Below, piece by piece: positions 34,041 to 48,484 of a DNA stretch of 64,000 nucleotides. The translations under genes were made by a program, and so were the position numbers. The DNA comes from a virus. Location: the IMG/VR virus record IMGVR_UViG_3300042887_000598, positions 5,921 through 69,920 of that record; one strand, given 5' to 3'. The notes under the pieces are model-generated. The model was not told where the DNA came from. It saw only the letters and a list, made by a program, of their open reading frames with translations, and did no database searches. The first letter of the stretch is position 1, and each line of letters begins with the position of its first letter.

Positions 34041-34945
34041 TAGATTTCTCCTTGAGTTGGCTTGGTTGAAAGATACTTTTTATGCTGCGAACAAAATGCA
34101 GCGACTTGGCAAAACCCTTCGCAGCGTGTGCGTGCGCCGGGCCTGTGCTCGATGAGGAAGGTTTCACCCTTCTTTGCTTTTTCGTTGGCCTGAGCCAGTG
34201 CGCGTTCGGCGTCTTCTCGTTTCTCGTGGACGCTCTTAGCCCTGACTCCGCCATCCTTTTTCACAGCAAAGTATTCAGGCTTCTCCCACATCTCTTCTGG
34301 CGTGCATTCCGCGACATCACTGCCCACCTCAATGTCGAAGAAGGCTGACTCCTGCAAGTGGATGCGCTGCTTGATGTATTCGTCTTGGCGCTCCACCGGC
34401 CACAGAGGGATGTCGATCACCACGATGGGTGCCTTGGGGTATCCCTCGCGTCCAGTGTCGCGGCGTGCCCAGTCACGGACGATGGCAACGATCTGCAGCT
34501 TCTTGACTGTCACGCCCTTGGCCTTGTGCAGCAAGTAAGCGTAGCAGTTCAACTGGTTGTGCCAATCTTGCTTTTCATTCATGACGGTCCATGCACCAAC
34601 AGTTTTATAGTCCGACAAAACAACGCCATCCTCATGCACCTCTTGCAGATCAATTGCACCAGAGATGTTCATGCCGCCAATTTGGATGTGTATGCGCTCT
34701 TCAACAATGTGGTTTTCATCCTTACCGTGCTCAAGAATGTTATGGATGGCTGTTCCAAAAATTGACCAAACCATGTCCGAAGAATCTTCTTCCAGTTCGT
34801 CCCAGTGCCTTCTTTTTAGCTGGACAATTCTTGGGCTCGTCATAAGCTCCGTGACTGACAAGTTTGCTTTCCCTTTTGAATATTGCGGCCTTTTTAGGAC
34901 ATTCAAAATTGTTTCTGGAAGCCCGTGTTTATTGGTCAACTTCAT
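34040..34945 (-). CDS. PD-(D/E)XK (Cas4/RecB-like) exonuclease
   Basis: SVTEL..PR, GTAIH..LE, ISGAIDL...DYKT, QLNCY, C-terminal RC..FC.VA.FC; in an operon with ERF and SSB. Confidence 0.85.
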   Translation of the reverse strand: MKLTNKHGLPETILNVLKRPQYSKGKANLSVTELMTSPRIVQLKRRHWDELEEDSSDMVWSIFGTAIHNILEHGKDENHIVEERIHIQIGGMNISGAIDLQEVHEDGVVLSDYKTVGAWTVMNEKQDWHNQLNCYAYLLHKAKGVTVKKLQIVAIVRDWARRDTGREGYPKAPIVVIDIPLWPVERQDEYIKQRIHLQESAFFDIEVGSDVAECTPEEMWEKPEYFAVKKDGGVRAKSVHEKREDAERALAQANEKAKKGETFLIEHRPGARTRCEGFCQVAAFCSQHKKYLSTKPTQGEI

Positions 34946-35639
34946 CTTTTTTCTCCTTCTGTTTTGCCAAAAACGCCAGCCTTGATTGGCGCATTTTTTC
35001 TCTTGCCTCCGGGGTGTATCTGTACCCTGTTTTTGACCAAGATAGCTTTGTTCTCATCGTCTCTGATTTTGGTTTTCCCATGTGAGCTTTTGAAAGTTTT
35101 TCTTTGTGCTCATCTGTGAGCTTCACGCCCTTTTTTGAGGCAATCATTTTTGCCATTGCTTCCGGGTTTACGCTAACGTGCTTCGCCATCATTGCTGCCT
35201 TTACGTGACTCAGCATTGGCCTGCCCTTGTTTGGCGACGGCTTACCGAACAGAGGATGGTTTTCCCCTTTCATGCGTTCGGAAATTTTTTTCCTAAATTC
35301 TGGAGATTGGCTTTGCTGCCTAATTCGCGCAACATGCTTTTCGTATTGCTCTGGCGGCATTTTCCTTCCAGAGTTTCCCTCGCCTCCGTTCGTCATATTG
35401 GTAAGGCGGCACCCCATGTCTTTGAAGCATAAGATCAAAAATTTCTCATGCTCAAATGCCTCTTGCTCGGTGTTCCACCCTGCGCAAATCTCAACAACTT
35501 TTCCATGCTTGTTTGCAACGCTCTTCCAAAAATTGCTTCGACCGGACGCGGTCCTTGCTCGCGTAATGCTTCCTTTGCCGACATAAAAAACAGAGCCGTC
35601 ATCCGCCTGACGATGGATGTATGTGTAGAAGAGTTTCAT
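34929..35639 (-). CDS. GIY-YIG homing endonuclease with NUMOD3 repeats
   Basis: YTYIHR...FYVGKG, LTNMTNGGEG, HPLFGK, EHKEKLSKAHMGK; likely start MKLFYTY. Confidence 0.85.
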   Translation of the reverse strand: MKLFYTYIHRQADDGSVFYVGKGSITRARTASGRSNFWKSVANKHGKVVEICAGWNTEQEAFEHEKFLILCFKDMGCRLTNMTNGGEGNSGRKMPPEQYEKHVARIRQQSQSPEFRKKISERMKGENHPLFGKPSPNKGRPMLSHVKAAMMAKHVSVNPEAMAKMIASKKGVKLTDEHKEKLSKAHMGKPKSETMRTKLSWSKTGYRYTPEAREKMRQSRLAFLAKQKEKKDEVDQ

Positions 35640-36001
35640 TTTGCTCTTCCCATTTCTGCTGCTGCGCGGACGATGGCTAGGCGGGTTGCGGCGTAAGGGT
35701 TTTTTCCGTGCGGCACTACACACCGCATTTGATGCTGGATTTCATTTAAGTAAAAAACGACAGCCTCTTTACCGACTTCCGTGTATCCCCGGCTAACAAT
35801 CAAATCCAACCTCACCGCCAGTCGTAGCGCATCGCCATCGTCTGTGAGGGGGTCAAACCATCTTCTAGGCCATTCATCTGCTTTTGTCATGAAGCCAATA
35901 AATCGGTTATCACCTTGCTTGGTTACGTTGTCTATCTGCATGGGGATGATTTCAACGCCAGCCGCCTTTGCAGCCAGTTCCAATAGTTCTTTGTCAGTCA
36001 T
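35636..36001 (-). CDS. conserved phage hypothetical protein
   Basis: ELLELAAKAAG...FDPLTDDGDALRLAV...ATRLAIVRAAAEMG. Confidence 0.75.
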   Translation of the reverse strand: MTDKELLELAAKAAGVEIIPMQIDNVTKQGDNRFIGFMTKADEWPRRWFDPLTDDGDALRLAVRLDLIVSRGYTEVGKEAVVFYLNEIQHQMRCVVPHGKNPYAATRLAIVRAAAEMGRAK

Positions 36002-36234
36002 CCTTCACGCTCCATCGCCATGGTCTGCTTGTGTACTGCCATGAACAGGCTCACTACGTCGTGCAAGCTCATGCCCATTGCGGATGTGTATTGCGACAGC
36101 ATGATGGCTACTGCGGTGGCTGCTGTGCCGCCAGTGTGGTCTGCGTCGTCAAGGATCAGTGGACCAAACTTGTTGGAAATCTGAATCGCTCTGACAAGAA
36201 TTGCTATCTCGTCTTTTCTTTCGTCTTCAGTCAT
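35998..36234 (-). CDS. hypothetical protein
   Basis: 78-aa ORF with GGAGG RBS, overlapping both neighbours. Confidence 0.6.
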   Translation of the reverse strand: MTEDERKDEIAILVRAIQISNKFGPLILDDADHTGGTAATAVAIMLSQYTSAMGMSLHDVVSLFMAVHKQTMAMEREG

Positions 36235-36706
36235 TGCTTCCTCCTAATGCGTTTTGAAGCTCTTTGTTCTTCACCTTCATCATTCCGGCGAGCATGGAAA
36301 TCTTTGCTTGCGCATCTGCGTTCTTTGCCCTGCCGGAGTCAGTCAACATCTCTGTCTTTGTGAAGCTGACGGACATGGCCATCTTCTTCATCTCACGACC
36401 GATTGCCTTGATGCCAGTGTCCACCGCGTACTGGGTCTGAGACTCCGGCTCAATGATCACGTAAGAGCCTTTGTTGTCGGACGCCAAGAGCATGCAGTGC
36501 GCTGTCAACAAGATGTCCTTAATCTCTGATGTGCATTGCAAGAGCTCGAGGTCATGCCGACGGACATCCTCAATACTCTCCGGTGGCTTCACATTGCAAA
36601 GCTCGGCGATGCGCTTTCTGCTGATGGTGCTACCGTAGGTGATGCCCTCATCAATCAGAACCTTGACGGCCTGCTTCCAAGCCGGGAACAGTGTTGTCTC
36701 TTGCAT
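36227..36706 (-). CDS. partner protein of the RAMP-like gene (possible winged-helix plus coiled coil)
   Basis: 159 aa; start overlaps the RAMP-like stop (TGATG); YGSTISRKRIAELC...NKGSYVII. Confidence 0.7.
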   Translation of the reverse strand: MQETTLFPAWKQAVKVLIDEGITYGSTISRKRIAELCNVKPPESIEDVRRHDLELLQCTSEIKDILLTAHCMLLASDNKGSYVIIEPESQTQYAVDTGIKAIGREMKKMAMSVSFTKTEMLTDSGRAKNADAQAKISMLAGMMKVKNKELQNALGGSND

Positions 36707-37275
36707 CAGACGAACTCCACATTGAAGCGGCCAAAACGTGGGCGATAGTCACCCAAACCAATGAGAGCTCCAGCATCTTGCACGGCCTTCTTCACCTCGT
36801 TGATGTTGACCACTTCCTCGTTGACAACGATGGTTGCGTTCAGTGACCACTTGCGCAGGATGGGGCGGTAGCGCATGATCTTTGCCATGCCAACCTTGAC
36901 GCCACGGCAGTCAACGTGCTCTGGGTCATTCCAAAGTTGCTCAGGTGTTTTCTTTTCGTAGCCTGTGAATACAAGATCATCCTCCAGCACCTGCACGCCT
37001 TGCTTGAACTTCACGCCGAGCTTTTGCATCTTGGCTGCGGCGATCAGGCACGCATCAAGGTTTTGTGCTGGCAAGAAGAAGCCAACATCCTTGCGCCAGT
37101 AGCAGCCGCCGATGAACTCACTGCGTGCGATGGCGGTGTGGTCGTCGTCTGTTTTCTTGCGTTTGCTGGTCAGCTCTTTGTGAGCCTTGGCAAGTGGGTC
37201 GAGCGGGTTTGCGAAACGGTCCGAGTGCATGAGCAAAGGGGCCTTACCTGTCAGTTGAACTGCGATTGTTTTCAT
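36706..37275 (-). CDS. stand-alone Cas7/RAMP-like RNA-binding protein (Vipr-like effector)
   Basis: 189 aa from ATG 37275 (AAGGAAAAC RBS). N-terminal strand VQLTGKAPLLMH; FLPAQNLDACL resembles RAMP IPGSSLKG; C-terminal Gly-rich loop IGLGDYRPRFGRF. Motif-level recognition only. Confidence 0.75.
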   Translation of the reverse strand: MKTIAVQLTGKAPLLMHSDRFANPLDPLAKAHKELTSKRKKTDDDHTAIARSEFIGGCYWRKDVGFFLPAQNLDACLIAAAKMQKLGVKFKQGVQVLEDDLVFTGYEKKTPEQLWNDPEHVDCRGVKVGMAKIMRYRPILRKWSLNATIVVNEEVVNINEVKKAVQDAGALIGLGDYRPRFGRFNVEFV

Positions 37276-37295: not shown

Positions 37296-37862
37296 GATGC
37301 ACGCTTTGCATCGAGATGACACCTCATTGAAGTGTCATAACGCTACATCAGCCCTCGCCGCGCCACTCCCGGCCTTTCCGTTTCACGCCGTGCCTTGCCA
37401 GTTGGTGTTGCCACCGAGGTGAGCTCTCATTGAAAACTCACGACGCTGTAAACAGCCCATACCGCGCCGGTCCTTTGCCCGCCCAGCCTGACCTGTGCTT
37501 GCCGATCCTCTTGGTGTTGCCACCGAAATAGTTCCTCACCGAAGAACCATCACGCTGTTAACAGCCCAAGCCGCGCCTCTCCAATCCTTGCCTCTCCGGG
37601 TCTCGCCCATGCTCTGCACGTCTTGCCTTTGCGGTCCAGTGCTCGGATAGCACTCAGAAAGATTTCTCCTTCTGGCTGTTATCAGCCCTAGCCAGTCCCG
37701 ACCTCGCCATGCCTTTCCTAGTCACGCTACGCAATGCCGTATGGTGTTACCACCGAAATGACTTCTTCTCAAAAGCCATCCCACTGTTAACAGCCCCTGT
37801 CATGCCGTTCCCTTGCAAACCCGGCCTAGCCTAGGCCAGAGAATCAATTATCAGGTAGGTTG
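37296..37862 (-). ncRNA. array of five putative guide RNAs: (triplet+NN)n pentamer tracts separated by three-hairpin linkers (VIPR-like)
   Basis: No ORF >=60 aa in 37312-37812. Five tracts with strict 5-nt period (37355-37399, 37459-37508, 37568-37637, 37689-37738, 37797-37833), each ending GGGCTG on the minus strand; GGTG-GNAA-CACC hairpin in three linkers. Confidence 0.85.
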
Positions 37863-37868
37863 GACTCG

Positions 37869-37898
37869 ATTGTATCTGCTATATATCAGGTTCGTCAA
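37869..37898 (-). promoter_or_regulatory. sigma70-type promoter for the array and RAMP operon
   Basis: Minus strand TTGACG (37898-37893), 18 nt, TACAAT (37874-37869). A divergent TACAAT at 37906-37911 lies in an ATTGTATC/GATACAAT inverted repeat. Confidence 0.65.
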
Positions 37899-48196: not shown

Positions 48197-48368
48197 TCTG
48201 TCTCGCAAGCACGGATTAGGCGCAAGGCTTCTGTGTATGCGGCAGGGGTGGTGGCTCGTGCGCCCAGCATATAGGCGCGGGTCAATGGGTGGTTTTGGTT
48301 TGGCATCTGTCTCGCAATCAAAAAATCGGCATCTGTCTCGCAATCACTCCGGGGCATCTGTCTCGCAA
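48197..48368. repeat. direct repeats of GGCATCTGTCTCGCAA
   Basis: Exact 16-mers at 48302, 48328 and 48353; 12-nt core TCTGTCTCGCAA also at 48197. Confidence 0.85.
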
Positions 48369-48484
48369 GCATCACCACGGGGCGGGCGGCGCGGCGTCAC
48401 GGGCTCGGCGCTCGTACTCGCGCACCTGCTCCGGCGTCCACGGTATCGGGCCGCCGGGCGGGGGGAAGGGCCACGGCTGCGGCG

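What the first reader, a model, noticed from the sequence alone, without database searches (positions are those of the whole stretch)
37562..37639. Longest guide decodes to LPKKVEWDPEKLEAL, a foreign phage-protein-like motif
Seen: NN series (CT) CC AA AA GT GA TG GA CC GA AA TT GA GC TT. As codon positions 1-2 this reads L-P-K/N-K/N-V-D/E-W/C-D/E-P-D/E-K/N-L/F-D/E-A-L/F. It resembles the LPK(K/R)V.WDQ..L motif I recall from a small protein in phage/prophage replication modules. No such peptide occurs in this window's ORFs. With 28 specified bases it is the most decisive guide to search.
Basis: partly seen in the sequence, partly recalled or inferred. Interest (0 to 1): 0.82.

Follow-up and report, generated by a model that had tools for sequence, protein, structure and literature searches.

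The report
Phage VIPR guide targeting rival prophages
This stretch is one guide RNA of a lake phage's CRISPR-like VIPR gene-silencing system. Its two-letters-on, one-letter-off code spells the most conserved motif of a small early gene of rival temperate phages, so it is a solid new example of a recently published kind of weapon.

Summary

It is the longest of five guides (vrRNAs) upstream of a Vipr gene. That gene matches the solved SUSP1 Vipr protein at E 1.4e-44. The system is therefore VIPR, published in three 2026 preprints.

This scan has noted VIPR often on other DNA: 940 notes in at least 505 genomes. A neighbouring guide on this window was already followed up.

The reading is supported:
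- Homologous guides in five related phages share the core.
- The consensus under the 1-nt-skip rule hit at least 120 viral and at least 120 genomic stretches.
- 231 of the 240 examined encode, in frame, LPK[KR]V[DE]WDQxKL in a ~156-aa protein of unknown function (phrog_2480).
- Controls gave 3, 0 and 0 hits.

The target gene follows an HTH regulator and precedes a Sak4-type recombinase and a helicase. The motif is the family's most conserved block. The neighbouring guide U4 hits a serine integrase 2.4-7.4 kb upstream in 41 of the same loci.

Caveats: no near-perfect target was found. The best match is 25/30, one mismatch falls on a near-invariant Gln codon, and 5 of 14 scaffold triplets are not GGN.

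Verdict: new member of a known kind.

The parts
37568..37637 (-). Repeat tract of guide U3: 14 pentamers (scaffold triplet + NN). NN = CC AA AA GT GA TG GA CC GA AA TT GA GC TT.
   Evidence: Homologous tracts occur in L009/L010/L046, L011 and L012.
37638..37639 (-). Leading CT dinucleotide, without a scaffold triplet of its own. It matches the Leu codon (CTN) that precedes the motif in most targets.
   Evidence: L011's homologous guide has a full GGT-CT unit here.
37511..37567 (-). 3' tail of vrRNA U3: GGGCTGTTAACAGC palindrome/hairpin, a variable hairpin, then GGTG-GCAA-CACC (GNRA loop).
   Evidence: Repeat families D1, D3, D4 and D6, the fold and the same order in relatives. The published vrRNA layout is tract followed by 3' tail.
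37640..37662 (-). Hairpin AGTGCT...AGCACT that ends the preceding unit (U4) in place of the usual GGTG-GNRA-CACC. Homologous hairpins precede the U3-like guides of relatives and mark one unit lineage.
37355..37836 (-). Whole array of five vrRNA units (U5, U4, U3, U2, U1 in order of transcription).
37689..37740 (-). Neighbouring guide U4. Its sites (>=18/22) lie in large serine recombinase genes of the same elements that carry the U3 target.
37869..37898 (-). Sigma-70-like promoter match TTGACG-18-TACAAT upstream of the array.
   Evidence: 1 site found against 0.4 expected. This is a consensus match only.
36706..37275 (-). vipr gene (189 aa), directly downstream of the array.
   Evidence: PDB 36pp_D 'SUSP1 Vipr protein', E 1.4e-44 over residues 1-188. 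phrog_4652, 6e-67. tblastn: 58% identity to Pseudomonas phage Medea1 and 39% to Felixounaviruses.
36227..36706 (-). Candidate vap accessory gene (159 aa). Its start overlaps the vipr stop.
   Evidence: phrog_5926. It is homologous to the gene directly downstream of vipr in Pseudomonas phages LESphi2 (2e-15) and Medea1 (3e-4).

Best explanation
The stretch is the targeting tract of one vrRNA (guide U3) of a type II-like VIPR system of an uncultivated lake phage.

Proposed mechanism: the array is transcribed from the minus strand and cut into units of tract plus 3' tail. Vipr protomers polymerise along the tract, bury each scaffold triplet and present each NN pair. The filament then binds double-stranded DNA in which the NN pairs recur with one skipped base between them, and blocks transcription there. 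All of these steps are inferred from the published SUSP1 work; none was tested here.

Shown here: the U3 guide lineage is aimed at the coding sequence of the motif LPK(K/R)V(D/E)WDQxKL. This is the most conserved block of a small protein of unknown function (phrog_2480). The skipped bases fall on codon wobble positions. The gene follows an HTH regulator and heads an early operon with a Sak4-type annealing protein and a helicase. It occurs in temperate phages and prophages of Alpha- and Betaproteobacteria that integrate with a large serine recombinase.

The neighbouring guide U4 hits that recombinase in the same elements, so the phage appears to aim at both arms of one class of rival. A roadblock in the second gene of the early operon should stop expression of the rival's recombination and replication genes (inferred).

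The window's copy of the guide spells the Lys-Lys allele. It matches sampled targets perfectly over its first eight units and at 9 of 14 bases thereafter.
For: System identity:
- The adjacent protein matches the solved SUSP1 Vipr at E 1.4e-44 over its full length.
- A syntenic vap-like gene follows it.
- Five units of pentamer tract plus conserved tail lie behind one promoter-like site.
- The published rules (GGY/NN, 1-nt skip, wobble, >=80% threshold, no self hits) were read.

Target:
- Four guide variants in relatives share CC AA (AA|CG) GT GA TG GA C(C|A) .. AA (C|T)T.
- That consensus, written with one skipped base, hit at least 120 viral stretches (115 of 120 examined in frame) and at least 120 genomic stretches (116 of 120).
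- Controls in viral contigs: the reversed pattern gave 3 hits, 2-nt skip gave 0 and 0-nt skip gave 0.
- At positions the pattern did not fix, U3 matches the family better than random guides (mean 6.88 against 3.53, P 0.007).
- L011's guide reaches 29/34 (P 0.002).
- 114 of 231 family sites reach >=24/30 for U3, and 59 of 231 are perfect over the first eight units.
- Unit-shuffled U3 gave 0 such sites in the same 1.9 Mb.

Guide evolution mirrors the protein. NN is invariant in 7 of 12 aligned units, while the scaffold triplet is invariant in 1 of 12. The varying NN units fall on variable residues (K/R88, x94, 97) or are synonymous (TT/CT for Leu96); the exception is the window's own CC at the near-invariant Gln93 codon. 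AA<->CG equals Lys<->Arg.

The motif lies in the family's most conserved 15-residue window, in 150 representatives chosen without regard to the motif.

Convergence: U4 has 41 sites >=18/22 in the same loci against 0 for shuffles. All are in large serine recombinases, on the opposite strand, 2.4-7.4 kb upstream. This holds for 24 of the 51 loci with enough upstream sequence. The same layout is annotated in Acidithiobacillus phage AcaML1.

Foreignness: the target family is absent from the own record and from 48 of 48 records of vipr relatives; the positive control matched 4 of 4.
Against: - No near-perfect target exists in what I could search. The full 28-base pattern gave 0 in viral contigs and metagenome contigs, and both 18-base halves gave 0 in viral contigs.
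- A pattern demanding the guide's own 3' features gave 0 in metagenome contigs. A Lys-Lys + TT-Leu pattern gave 0 in genome contigs.
- The best score is 25/30. By the binomial (my own arithmetic), a score of 25/30 somewhere in a collection of this size could arise by chance. The case therefore rests on the family-wide, in-frame pattern, not on the score.
- Unit 9 of U3 reads CC where the target has a near-invariant Gln codon: Q in 141 of 150 representatives, P in 0 of 150.
- Beyond the pattern-fixed positions, the best U3 match is only marginally above random guides (max 9/14, P 0.055).
- Only 5 of the 14 scaffold triplets are GGY; 4 are GGA, 3 GCA and 2 GAC. The published work says that perturbing GGY abolishes silencing.
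- Guides U1, U2 and U5 do not hit the same elements.
- Expression, processing, Vipr binding and silencing were not tested. The only RNA-library contigs laid come from a relative and do not show transcription.
- The hit lists were cut at 120 rows, so all counts are samples.
Confidence: 0.75

Rival explanations
1. U3 is a decaying or obsolete copy of a once well-matched guide. The lineage targets phrog_2480, but this phage's copy has drifted in both scaffold and NN and no longer silences anything.
For: - 5 of 14 scaffold triplets lack GG, against about 14% in relatives' arrays by my own caller.
- There is a mismatch at the near-invariant Gln codon.
- All five mismatches to the best targets lie in units 9-15.
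- No target better than 25/30 was found in three collections.
- One lake-metagenome contig replaces window 37573-37849, nearly all of the U3 tract plus U4 and U5, with 52 other letters.
Against: - Eight consecutive units plus the leading CT (16 read bases, 17 with the first base of unit 9) are perfect against 59 sampled targets.
- That is more read positions than the 12 of SUSP1 vrRNA4, whose target is the satellite recombinase that phage's VIPR immobilises.
- The U3 region is kept letter for letter in a pond-metagenome contig whose vipr differs at 54 positions.
- The published methods mention frequent internal degeneracy of vrRNAs.
Confidence: 0.15
2. The resemblance to phrog_2480 is coincidental, and U3 has another, unsampled target, possibly read on the other strand or in another register.
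For: A score of 25/30 alone is within reach of chance in a very large collection (my own arithmetic). The pattern search also returned 9 chance hits among the 240 examined.
Against: - At least 120 hits against 3, 0 and 0 in the controls.
- 231 of 240 hits are in frame in one family.
- Four guide variants co-vary with target alleles.
- The adjacent guide hits the same elements.
Confidence: 0.05
3. The tract is not a guide. It is instead a protein-binding or G-rich structural RNA in which the triplets are the signal and the NN are spacers, as in TRAP-type triplet repeats. This was my first reading, before I saw the literature.
For: GGN triplets recur every 5 nt. There was no Rfam match.
Against: - The adjacent gene is a Vipr homologue.
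- NN is more conserved than the scaffold among homologous guides, the opposite of what spacers would show.
- The NN decode to a real protein motif.
Confidence: 0.02

Closest known systems
Type II VIPR systems of Escherichia phage SUSP1 and a Pseudomonas fulva prophage (bioRxiv 10.64898/2026.04.26.720920 and .720927)
   Same: - Vipr homologue: E 1.4e-44 to the solved SUSP1 Vipr.
- A small accessory gene behind it.
- vrRNAs of 9-16 pentamers, each with a conserved 3' tail.
- Targets read with one skipped base that falls on codon wobble positions.
- No self hits.
- Targets in competing temperate elements.
   Different: - All five guides lie in one array upstream of vipr; SUSP1 has one upstream and three downstream.
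- The scaffold is looser (GGA, GCA, GAC beside GGY).
- The vap candidate resembles that of Pseudomonas phages, not of Felixounaviruses, at tblastn sensitivity.
- The habitat is lake water and the host is unknown.
- The type was assigned by likeness only, not by the authors' tree.
SUSP1 vrRNA4 against the excision recombinase of F5 satellites (bioRxiv 10.64898/2026.10.15.759431)
   Same: The guide reads codon positions 1-2 of a highly conserved stretch of an early, probably essential gene of a rival. Synonymous change therefore cannot help the rival escape. The window's U4 is the direct analogue, since it also hits a recombinase.
   Different: U3's target is a protein of unknown function heading a Sak4/helicase operon. 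The match is 83% at best, against an average of 89.2% reported there. No experiment was done here.
P. fulva-clade vrRNAs concentrated on one prophage locus (lysis-lysogeny regulators)
   Same: Several guides of one array converge on one class of prophage near its regulatory region.
   Different: Here only 2 of 5 guides converge. The genes hit are an integrase and the gene after the HTH regulator, not the regulators themselves. The paper's target lists (data S3) are supplements that I could not open.
Class 1 CRISPR crRNA on a Cas7 backbone
   Same: A RAMP protein polymerises on the guide, with periodic interruption of pairing.
   Different: There are no repeats and spacers acquired by Cas1-Cas2. 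Only 2 of every 5 guide bases are read, and the target itself is gapped.

Membership tests
VIPR system | Vipr protein (minimal RAMP) encoded next to the RNA | tested here: met
   Window 36709-37275(-) matches PDB 36pp_D 'SUSP1 Vipr protein' at E 1.4e-44, residues 1-188 on 1-189. 130 phage records were hit by tblastn, among them Felixounaviruses.
VIPR system | vrRNA tract: tandem 5-nt units, conserved GGY alternating with variable NN, 9-16 units (at least 4 for calling) | tested here: met
   14 units in unbroken phase. Caveat: only 5 of 14 triplets are GGY and 9 of 14 are GGN. The paper allows 'a related consensus' and internal degeneracy.
VIPR system | Conserved structured 3' tail after the tract | tested here: met
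   GGGCTG-TTAACAGC, a variable hairpin and a GNRA hairpin follow the tracts in the window (the last hairpin differs in two of the five units) and in relatives. The published pseudoknot was not tested.
VIPR system | Accessory vap gene in the operon | tested here: inconclusive
   A 159-aa gene overlaps the vipr stop and is syntenic in Pseudomonas phages. It was not compared with the published vap1-6, whose sequences I did not have.
VIPR system | Natural target found under the 1-nt-skip rule at >=80% NN match, skipped base at wobble | tested here: met
   114 of 231 family sites reach >=24/30, with a maximum of 25/30. 231 of 240 hits are in frame. The 0-nt and 2-nt skip patterns gave 0 hits.
VIPR system | No self-target at >=80% | tested here: met
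   The best self score is 19/30, within the shuffled null. There were 0 hits at <=3 mismatches.
VIPR system | vrRNA is expressed, processed and bound by Vipr; the complex silences transcription | not testable with these tools
   Read laying gave contigs only. The one RNA library holds a relative and does not show transcription.
phrog_2480 (target protein family, unknown function) | Match to the family profile over the whole length | tested here: met
   2.8e-29 and 2e-31 for two targets. 1125 representative clusters at E <= 1e-3.
Mu Gam-like host-nuclease inhibitors (PF07352), considered for the target | Score above Pfam's gathering threshold, or a shared fold | tested here: inconclusive
   2 of 43 members match, both below the cut-off (19.5 bits against 28.3). 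Foldseek and VIA-align gave no clear solved relative.
Large serine recombinase (target of neighbouring guide U4) | Resolvase N-terminal domain plus Recombinase domain (with or without zinc ribbon) | tested here: met
   PF00239 at 2.4e-40, PF07508 and PF13408 in L159's ORF; PF00239 and PF07508 in L093's ORF.

The most novel reading that the evidence does not exclude
VIPR guides are heritable units that evolve in place. Within one unit lineage, marked by its own odd flanking hairpin, the scaffold letters drift freely while the NN letters are held or changed in step with the alleles of the target protein. Examples are the two-base step AA<->CG for Lys<->Arg, the synonymous TT/CT for Leu, and free change at the protein's variable residues.

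Such a lineage acts as a broad-spectrum, 'motif-level' silencer aimed at the one block that a gene family present in over a thousand protein clusters cannot change. Paired with a second guide on the integrase of the same elements, it would be a two-pronged attack on a whole class of serine-integrase prophages across Alpha- and Betaproteobacteria.

This would give a first concrete picture of how guides without Cas1-Cas2 diversify.
Probability: 0.3. Interest if true: 0.6.

Novelty: new member of a known kind. Interest (0 to 1): 0.45.

Why it matters
VIPR was described only in 2026, mainly from two enterobacterial and Pseudomonas clades. This case extends it in four ways:
- It adds an environmental clade: a lake phage and 48 relatives.
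- It adds a target class not named in the main texts I read, namely the first structural gene of a Sak4/helicase early operon (family phrog_2480, function unknown).
- It shows two adjacent guides converging on the two arms of one class of serine-integrase prophage.
- It gives a small natural series of homologous guides whose read letters track target alleles, which bears on the open question of how these guides arise and change.

It also flags phrog_2480 as a gene that rivals find worth silencing, which is a reason to study its function.

Tried and rejected
First reading. Before seeing the literature I read the tract as a TRAP-like triplet-repeat or G-rich RNA. I dropped this.

RNA families and DNA similarity:
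- Rfam: 0 matches in the window.
- blastn of the intergenic region against isolated phages: no match.

Exact U3 patterns:
- Full 28 bases: 0 in viral contigs and 0 in metagenome contigs.
- 3' 18 bases and 5' 18 bases: 0 each in viral contigs.
- A 20-base pattern keeping U3's own 3' features: 0 in metagenome contigs.
- A 22-base Lys-Lys + TT-Leu pattern: 0 in genome contigs.
- I never sent the full 28-base pattern to genome contigs.

Function of the target:
- Pfam gave only sub-threshold hits: Mu Gam in 2 of 43, DUF7173 in 4 of 43.
- NCBIfam gave none.
- A PDB profile search found no relative; the only hits, HeliScrew4 (9.2e-05, 34 residues of the N-terminal region) and a 14-3-3 protein (0.89), look unrelated.
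- Foldseek against PDB gave nothing at E <= 0.001.
- VIA-align wide gave only long-helix matches, Z <= 4.5, covering residues 18-67. The C-terminal domain was therefore barely tested, and I did not fold it alone.
- BFVD and the Atlas gave only uncharacterised phage proteins.

Isolated phages: only 5 records carry the family. In AcaML1, U3 scores 19/30, below threshold, while U4 scores 18/22.

Other guides on the same rivals:
- U1, U2 and U5 were not above shuffled guides in the 240 loci.
- They were not above shuffles inside the 41 recombinase ORFs either.
- U1 and U2 had 0 hits at <=3 mismatches in five whole doubly-hit records.

Expression. One RNA library held 14% of the sampled words. Laid as contigs, it holds a roughly 90%-alike relative in which the tails align and the tracts differ. 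This shows nothing about transcription.

Literature:
- The structure preprint has no occurrence of 'mismatch', 'seed', 'nucleation' or 'tail', so I could not learn which end of a guide tolerates mismatches.
- No paper holds both 'vrRNA' and 'Sak4'.
- The first VIPR preprint's main text has 0 occurrences of 'recombinase', 'replication' and 'integrase'.
They may already list this family or clade.
Full report
THE OBSERVATION. The region between the divergent genes at 37275 and 37946 contains five tandem units. Read on the minus strand, each unit is a run of pentamers in unbroken phase. It is followed by a conserved tail: GGGCTG-TTAACAGC, a variable hairpin, then usually GGTG-GNRA-CACC.

The unit of this finding is 37639->37568: CT, then 14 pentamers GGA-CC, GCA-AA, GGC-AA, GAC-GT, GCA-GA, GCA-TG, GGC-GA, GAC-CC, GGA-GA, GGC-AA, GGA-TT, GGA-GA, GGC-GC, GGC-TT. 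This is the longest tract of the array. Positions 37562-37567 belong to the tail.

WHAT THE SYSTEM IS. My first idea, triplet repeats bound by a ring protein with NN as spacers, was wrong. Earlier notes of this scan pointed to VIPR, and I checked that myself.

Three 2026 preprints describe VIPR:
- 10.64898/2026.04.26.720920: I read the abstract, all of Results, and Methods sections 20, 26 and 27.
- .720927: I read the abstract and outline.
- 10.64898/2026.10.15.759431: I read the abstract, sections 6 and 17, and passages.

According to these papers:
- A minimal RAMP protein, Vipr, polymerises on vrRNAs made of GGY/NN pentamers with a 3' tail.
- Only the NN bases pair with the target.
- One base of the target is skipped between pairs. 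In natural targets it is mostly the codon wobble base.
- Targets are competing phages, prophages and satellites.
- 80% NN identity is the working threshold.

The 189-aa protein just downstream of the array (36709-37275, minus strand) matches the solved 'SUSP1 Vipr protein' (PDB 36pp_D) at E 1.4e-44 over its whole length. It also matches phrog_4652. It is 58% identical to a protein of Pseudomonas phage Medea1 and 39% identical to proteins of Felixounaviruses.

The next gene, whose start overlaps the vipr stop, is homologous to the gene that follows vipr in Pseudomonas phages LESphi2 and Medea1. A promoter-like site lies upstream of the array on the same strand.

The window is part of a 69,920-b IMG/VR virus record rated complete. 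Its DNA occurs in 21 lake- and pond-water metagenome runs at half or more of the sampled words.

SEARCHING FOR THE TARGET.
- in the window or the whole record, even with 3 mismatches;
- in viral contigs;
- in metagenome contigs.
Neither 18-base half matches in viral contigs.

I then fetched 48 loci that encode relatives of this Vipr, at 46-97% identity. All have pentamer tracts, nearly all directly upstream of the gene (my own caller; 186 tracts in relatives).

Five loci carry guides homologous to U3:
- L012: CC AA CG GT GA TG GA CA AA AA CT GA AT.
- L009, L010 and L046, all the same: ...CA AC AA CT AA.
- L011: CT CC AA AA GT GA TG GA CA TT AA CT AA GA GC GT AA.
In L009, L010, L012 and L046 the preceding hairpin is the same unusual type as in the window, so these are one unit lineage; L011's flank differs.

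Their consensus written with one skipped base is CCNAANMRNGTNGANTGNGANCMNNNNAANYT. Of the 120 examined, 115 encode, in frame, LPK[KR]V[DE]WDQxKL about 85 residues into a protein of roughly 156 aa. The other five are out-of-frame chance hits containing a stop codon.

The same pattern gave at least 120 stretches in genome contigs, of which 116 of 120 are in frame.

Controls in viral contigs:
- The pattern read backwards gave 3 stretches.
- The same letters with two skipped bases gave 0.
- The same letters with no skipped base gave 0.

HOW GOOD IS U3'S OWN MATCH. Over the 231 family sites, U3 (15 read pairs including the leading CT) scores 20-25 of 30:
- 114 sites reach the published 80% threshold (>=24/30).
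- 24 sites reach 25/30.
- 59 sites are perfect over the first eight units.
- Unit-order shuffles of U3 gave no site at >=24 in the same 1.9 Mb; their best score was 22 (30 shuffles).

These loci were fetched with a pattern derived from the guides, so I also scored only the positions that the pattern did not fix. There U3's mean match is 6.88 of 14 against 3.53 for random guides (P 0.007). Its best is 9 of 14 (P 0.055). L011's guide reaches 29/34 (P 0.002).

The mismatches to the best targets are single bases in units 9, 10, 12, 13 and 15. One of them is serious: unit 9 reads CC where the family has a Gln codon. Q occurs in 141 of 150 representatives and P in 0 of 150.

Patterns demanding U3's own 3' features found nothing in metagenome contigs or genome contigs. 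So there is no 'near-perfect' hit. By my own arithmetic, 25/30 taken alone would not be significant in collections of this size.

THE GUIDE LINEAGE MIRRORS THE PROTEIN. Across the four guide variants, NN is invariant in 7 of 12 aligned units, while the scaffold triplet is invariant in only 1 of 12.

- The invariant NN sit on P86, K87, V89, D/E90, W91, D92 and K95.
- The changing NN sit on residue 88 (AA or CG, i.e. Lys or Arg, the two common alleles: 75 K and 43 R of 150), on the variable residue 94, on Leu96 (TT or CT, synonymous) and on residue 97.
- The one exception is unit 8, on the near-invariant Gln93 codon, where the window alone reads CC.

In 150 representatives of the family found by phmmer with a whole target protein, and so chosen without regard to the motif, the most conserved 15-residue window starts at residue 83. 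The four best windows start at 82-85, and the guide footprint is 85-99.

Across the target sequences, the skipped positions are the variable ones: mean entropy 1.19 bits against 0.41 and 0.33. Part of this holds by construction of the pattern.

WHAT THE TARGET IS.
- The family is phrog_2480, of unknown function. It has 1125 representative clusters at E <= 1e-3.
- An AlphaFold model from 43 sequences is confident (pLDDT 92.8). It shows a long helix (22-64), a beta hairpin (70-85), and the motif running from the end of the hairpin into helix 93-105.
- I found no solved relative and only uncharacterised viral look-alikes.
- A Mu Gam likeness is sub-threshold, in 2 of 43 members.

Gene neighbours were clustered from the 52 loci where my ORF picker found the gene. 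Upstream is an HTH_17/excisionase-like regulator. Downstream are an AAA_24 Sak4-like annealing protein, phrog_2300 and an SF2 helicase.

In the isolated temperate phage AcaML1 the homologue (Gp10, annotated as hypothetical) is the second gene of the rightward operon. It lies after a 'transcriptional regulator' and opposite an excisionase-to-recombinase arm.

Of the 80 genomic hits with titles, most are Alphaproteobacteria and nine are Betaproteobacteria. Eight of those nine carry the Lys-Lys allele that U3 spells (my reading of the titles). This is a weak hint at the host.

CONVERGENCE WITH THE NEIGHBOURING GUIDE. I scanned the 240 fetched loci with all five guides of the window.
- U4 has 41 sites at >=18/22, against none for shuffled guides.
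- All 41 encode V/I-V/I-VVYKIDRL-S/T in large serine recombinases (Resolvase + Recombinase domains).
- All lie on the strand opposite to the U3 target gene, 2,375-7,428 nt upstream of it.
- This holds for 41 of 231 loci overall, and for 24 of the 51 loci that have at least 6.5 kb of upstream sequence.
- Nine loci combine U3 at 25/30 with U4 at >=18/22. The four viral records among the five whole records I then searched are classed as proviruses of 42-44 kb.

U1, U2 and U5 do not share these elements.

The target family is absent from the phage's own record and from all 48 records of vipr relatives, nine of which are at least 90% complete. A positive control matched 4 of 4.

MECHANISM, AND WHAT IS SHOWN. 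Shown here:
- the anatomy of the array;
- the Vipr homology;
- the gapped, in-frame match of a guide lineage to one conserved coding motif;
- the foreignness of that motif;
- the co-targeting of the same elements by the next guide.

Inferred from the published SUSP1 work:
- transcription and processing of the array;
- the Vipr filament that hides the scaffold triplets and presents the NN;
- binding of double-stranded DNA with every third base skipped;
- the resulting transcriptional roadblock.

U3 has the sense of the coding strand, so it would pair with the template strand. The papers report silencing on either strand.

A block in the second gene of the early operon should be polar on the Sak4-type recombinase and the helicase. 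From search listings only, Sak4 recombinases are reported as required for phage replication in Staphylococcus aureus (PMC5499656).

SUSP1 vrRNA4 reads only 12 bases, and its target is the satellite recombinase that phage's VIPR immobilises. This suggests that U3's perfect 5' block of 16 read bases could suffice. Mismatch tolerance along a long guide is not described in what I could read.

NOVELTY. The kind is published, and this scan has met it many times: 940 notes in at least 505 genomes hold the search words. On this window the neighbouring guide was already followed up.

New here:
- the clade;
- the target family, which is not named in the main texts I read (supplements unseen);
- the pairing of U3 and U4 on one class of prophage;
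- the natural allelic series of a guide.

The verdict is a new member of a known kind, of moderate interest.

LIMITS.
- Both large hit lists were cut at 120 rows.
- Collection scans allow exact patterns only, so a better-matched allele with scattered differences could have been missed.
- The neighbour analysis used a crude ORF picker.
- The host is unknown.
- There is no expression or activity data.

Noticed in passing
In the 41 recombinase ORFs hit by U4, the best in-frame U5 score averages 9.39/16 against 9.00 for shuffled guides, and the best sites are not at the N-terminal motif. That reading finds no support in these elements.
   Followed up: partly
window 37403-37850, in coded runs X17, X21 and X22: Array content varies in nature. 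One lake contig (X17) replaces window 37573-37849 with 52 other letters. A pond contig (X21) keeps 37403-37680 letter for letter, although its vipr differs at 54 positions and its array is arranged differently. A roughly 90%-alike relative in a wastewater RNA library (X22) aligns at the tails but not at the tracts.
   Followed up: partly
unit 6 of the U3 lineage (window 37608-37612; L011, L012, L046): The scaffold triplet before NN = TG is GCA in all four guide variants. It is the only invariant scaffold among 12 aligned units, and it is not GGN. Unexplained.
   Followed up: no
L011:989-1075: L011's homologous guide keeps its register through a CCC 'scaffold' unit (CCCAA) and a TGT unit. The NN after them still match the target, with AA GA for Asn-Asp of the KLND allele. 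Phase seems to matter more than scaffold identity.
   Followed up: partly
L001-L008 (Vipr 95-97% identical) against L009-L012 and L046 (86%): The closest relatives by Vipr lack a U3-like guide, although L001 shares U5 and L001 and L003 share U4. The U3 lineage appears instead in more distant relatives. Guides seem to be exchanged or lost as cassettes.
   Followed up: partly
L176, L214 (genome contigs): In-frame members of the target family occur in contigs titled Flavobacteriaceae and Gemmataceae MAGs. L176's 45-nt site is letter for letter that of many alphaproteobacterial hits; L214's is an ordinary Lys-Lys site. This is probably mis-binned contigs rather than wide host range.
   Followed up: no
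window 34932-35723 (-): A NUMOD3/homing-endonuclease-like gene sits inside the recombination module, between the small genes after vap and the PD-(D/E)XK exonuclease.
   Followed up: no
window 48302-48383: About three copies of a 26-nt tandem repeat. This may be an iteron-like element. Not examined.
   Followed up: no
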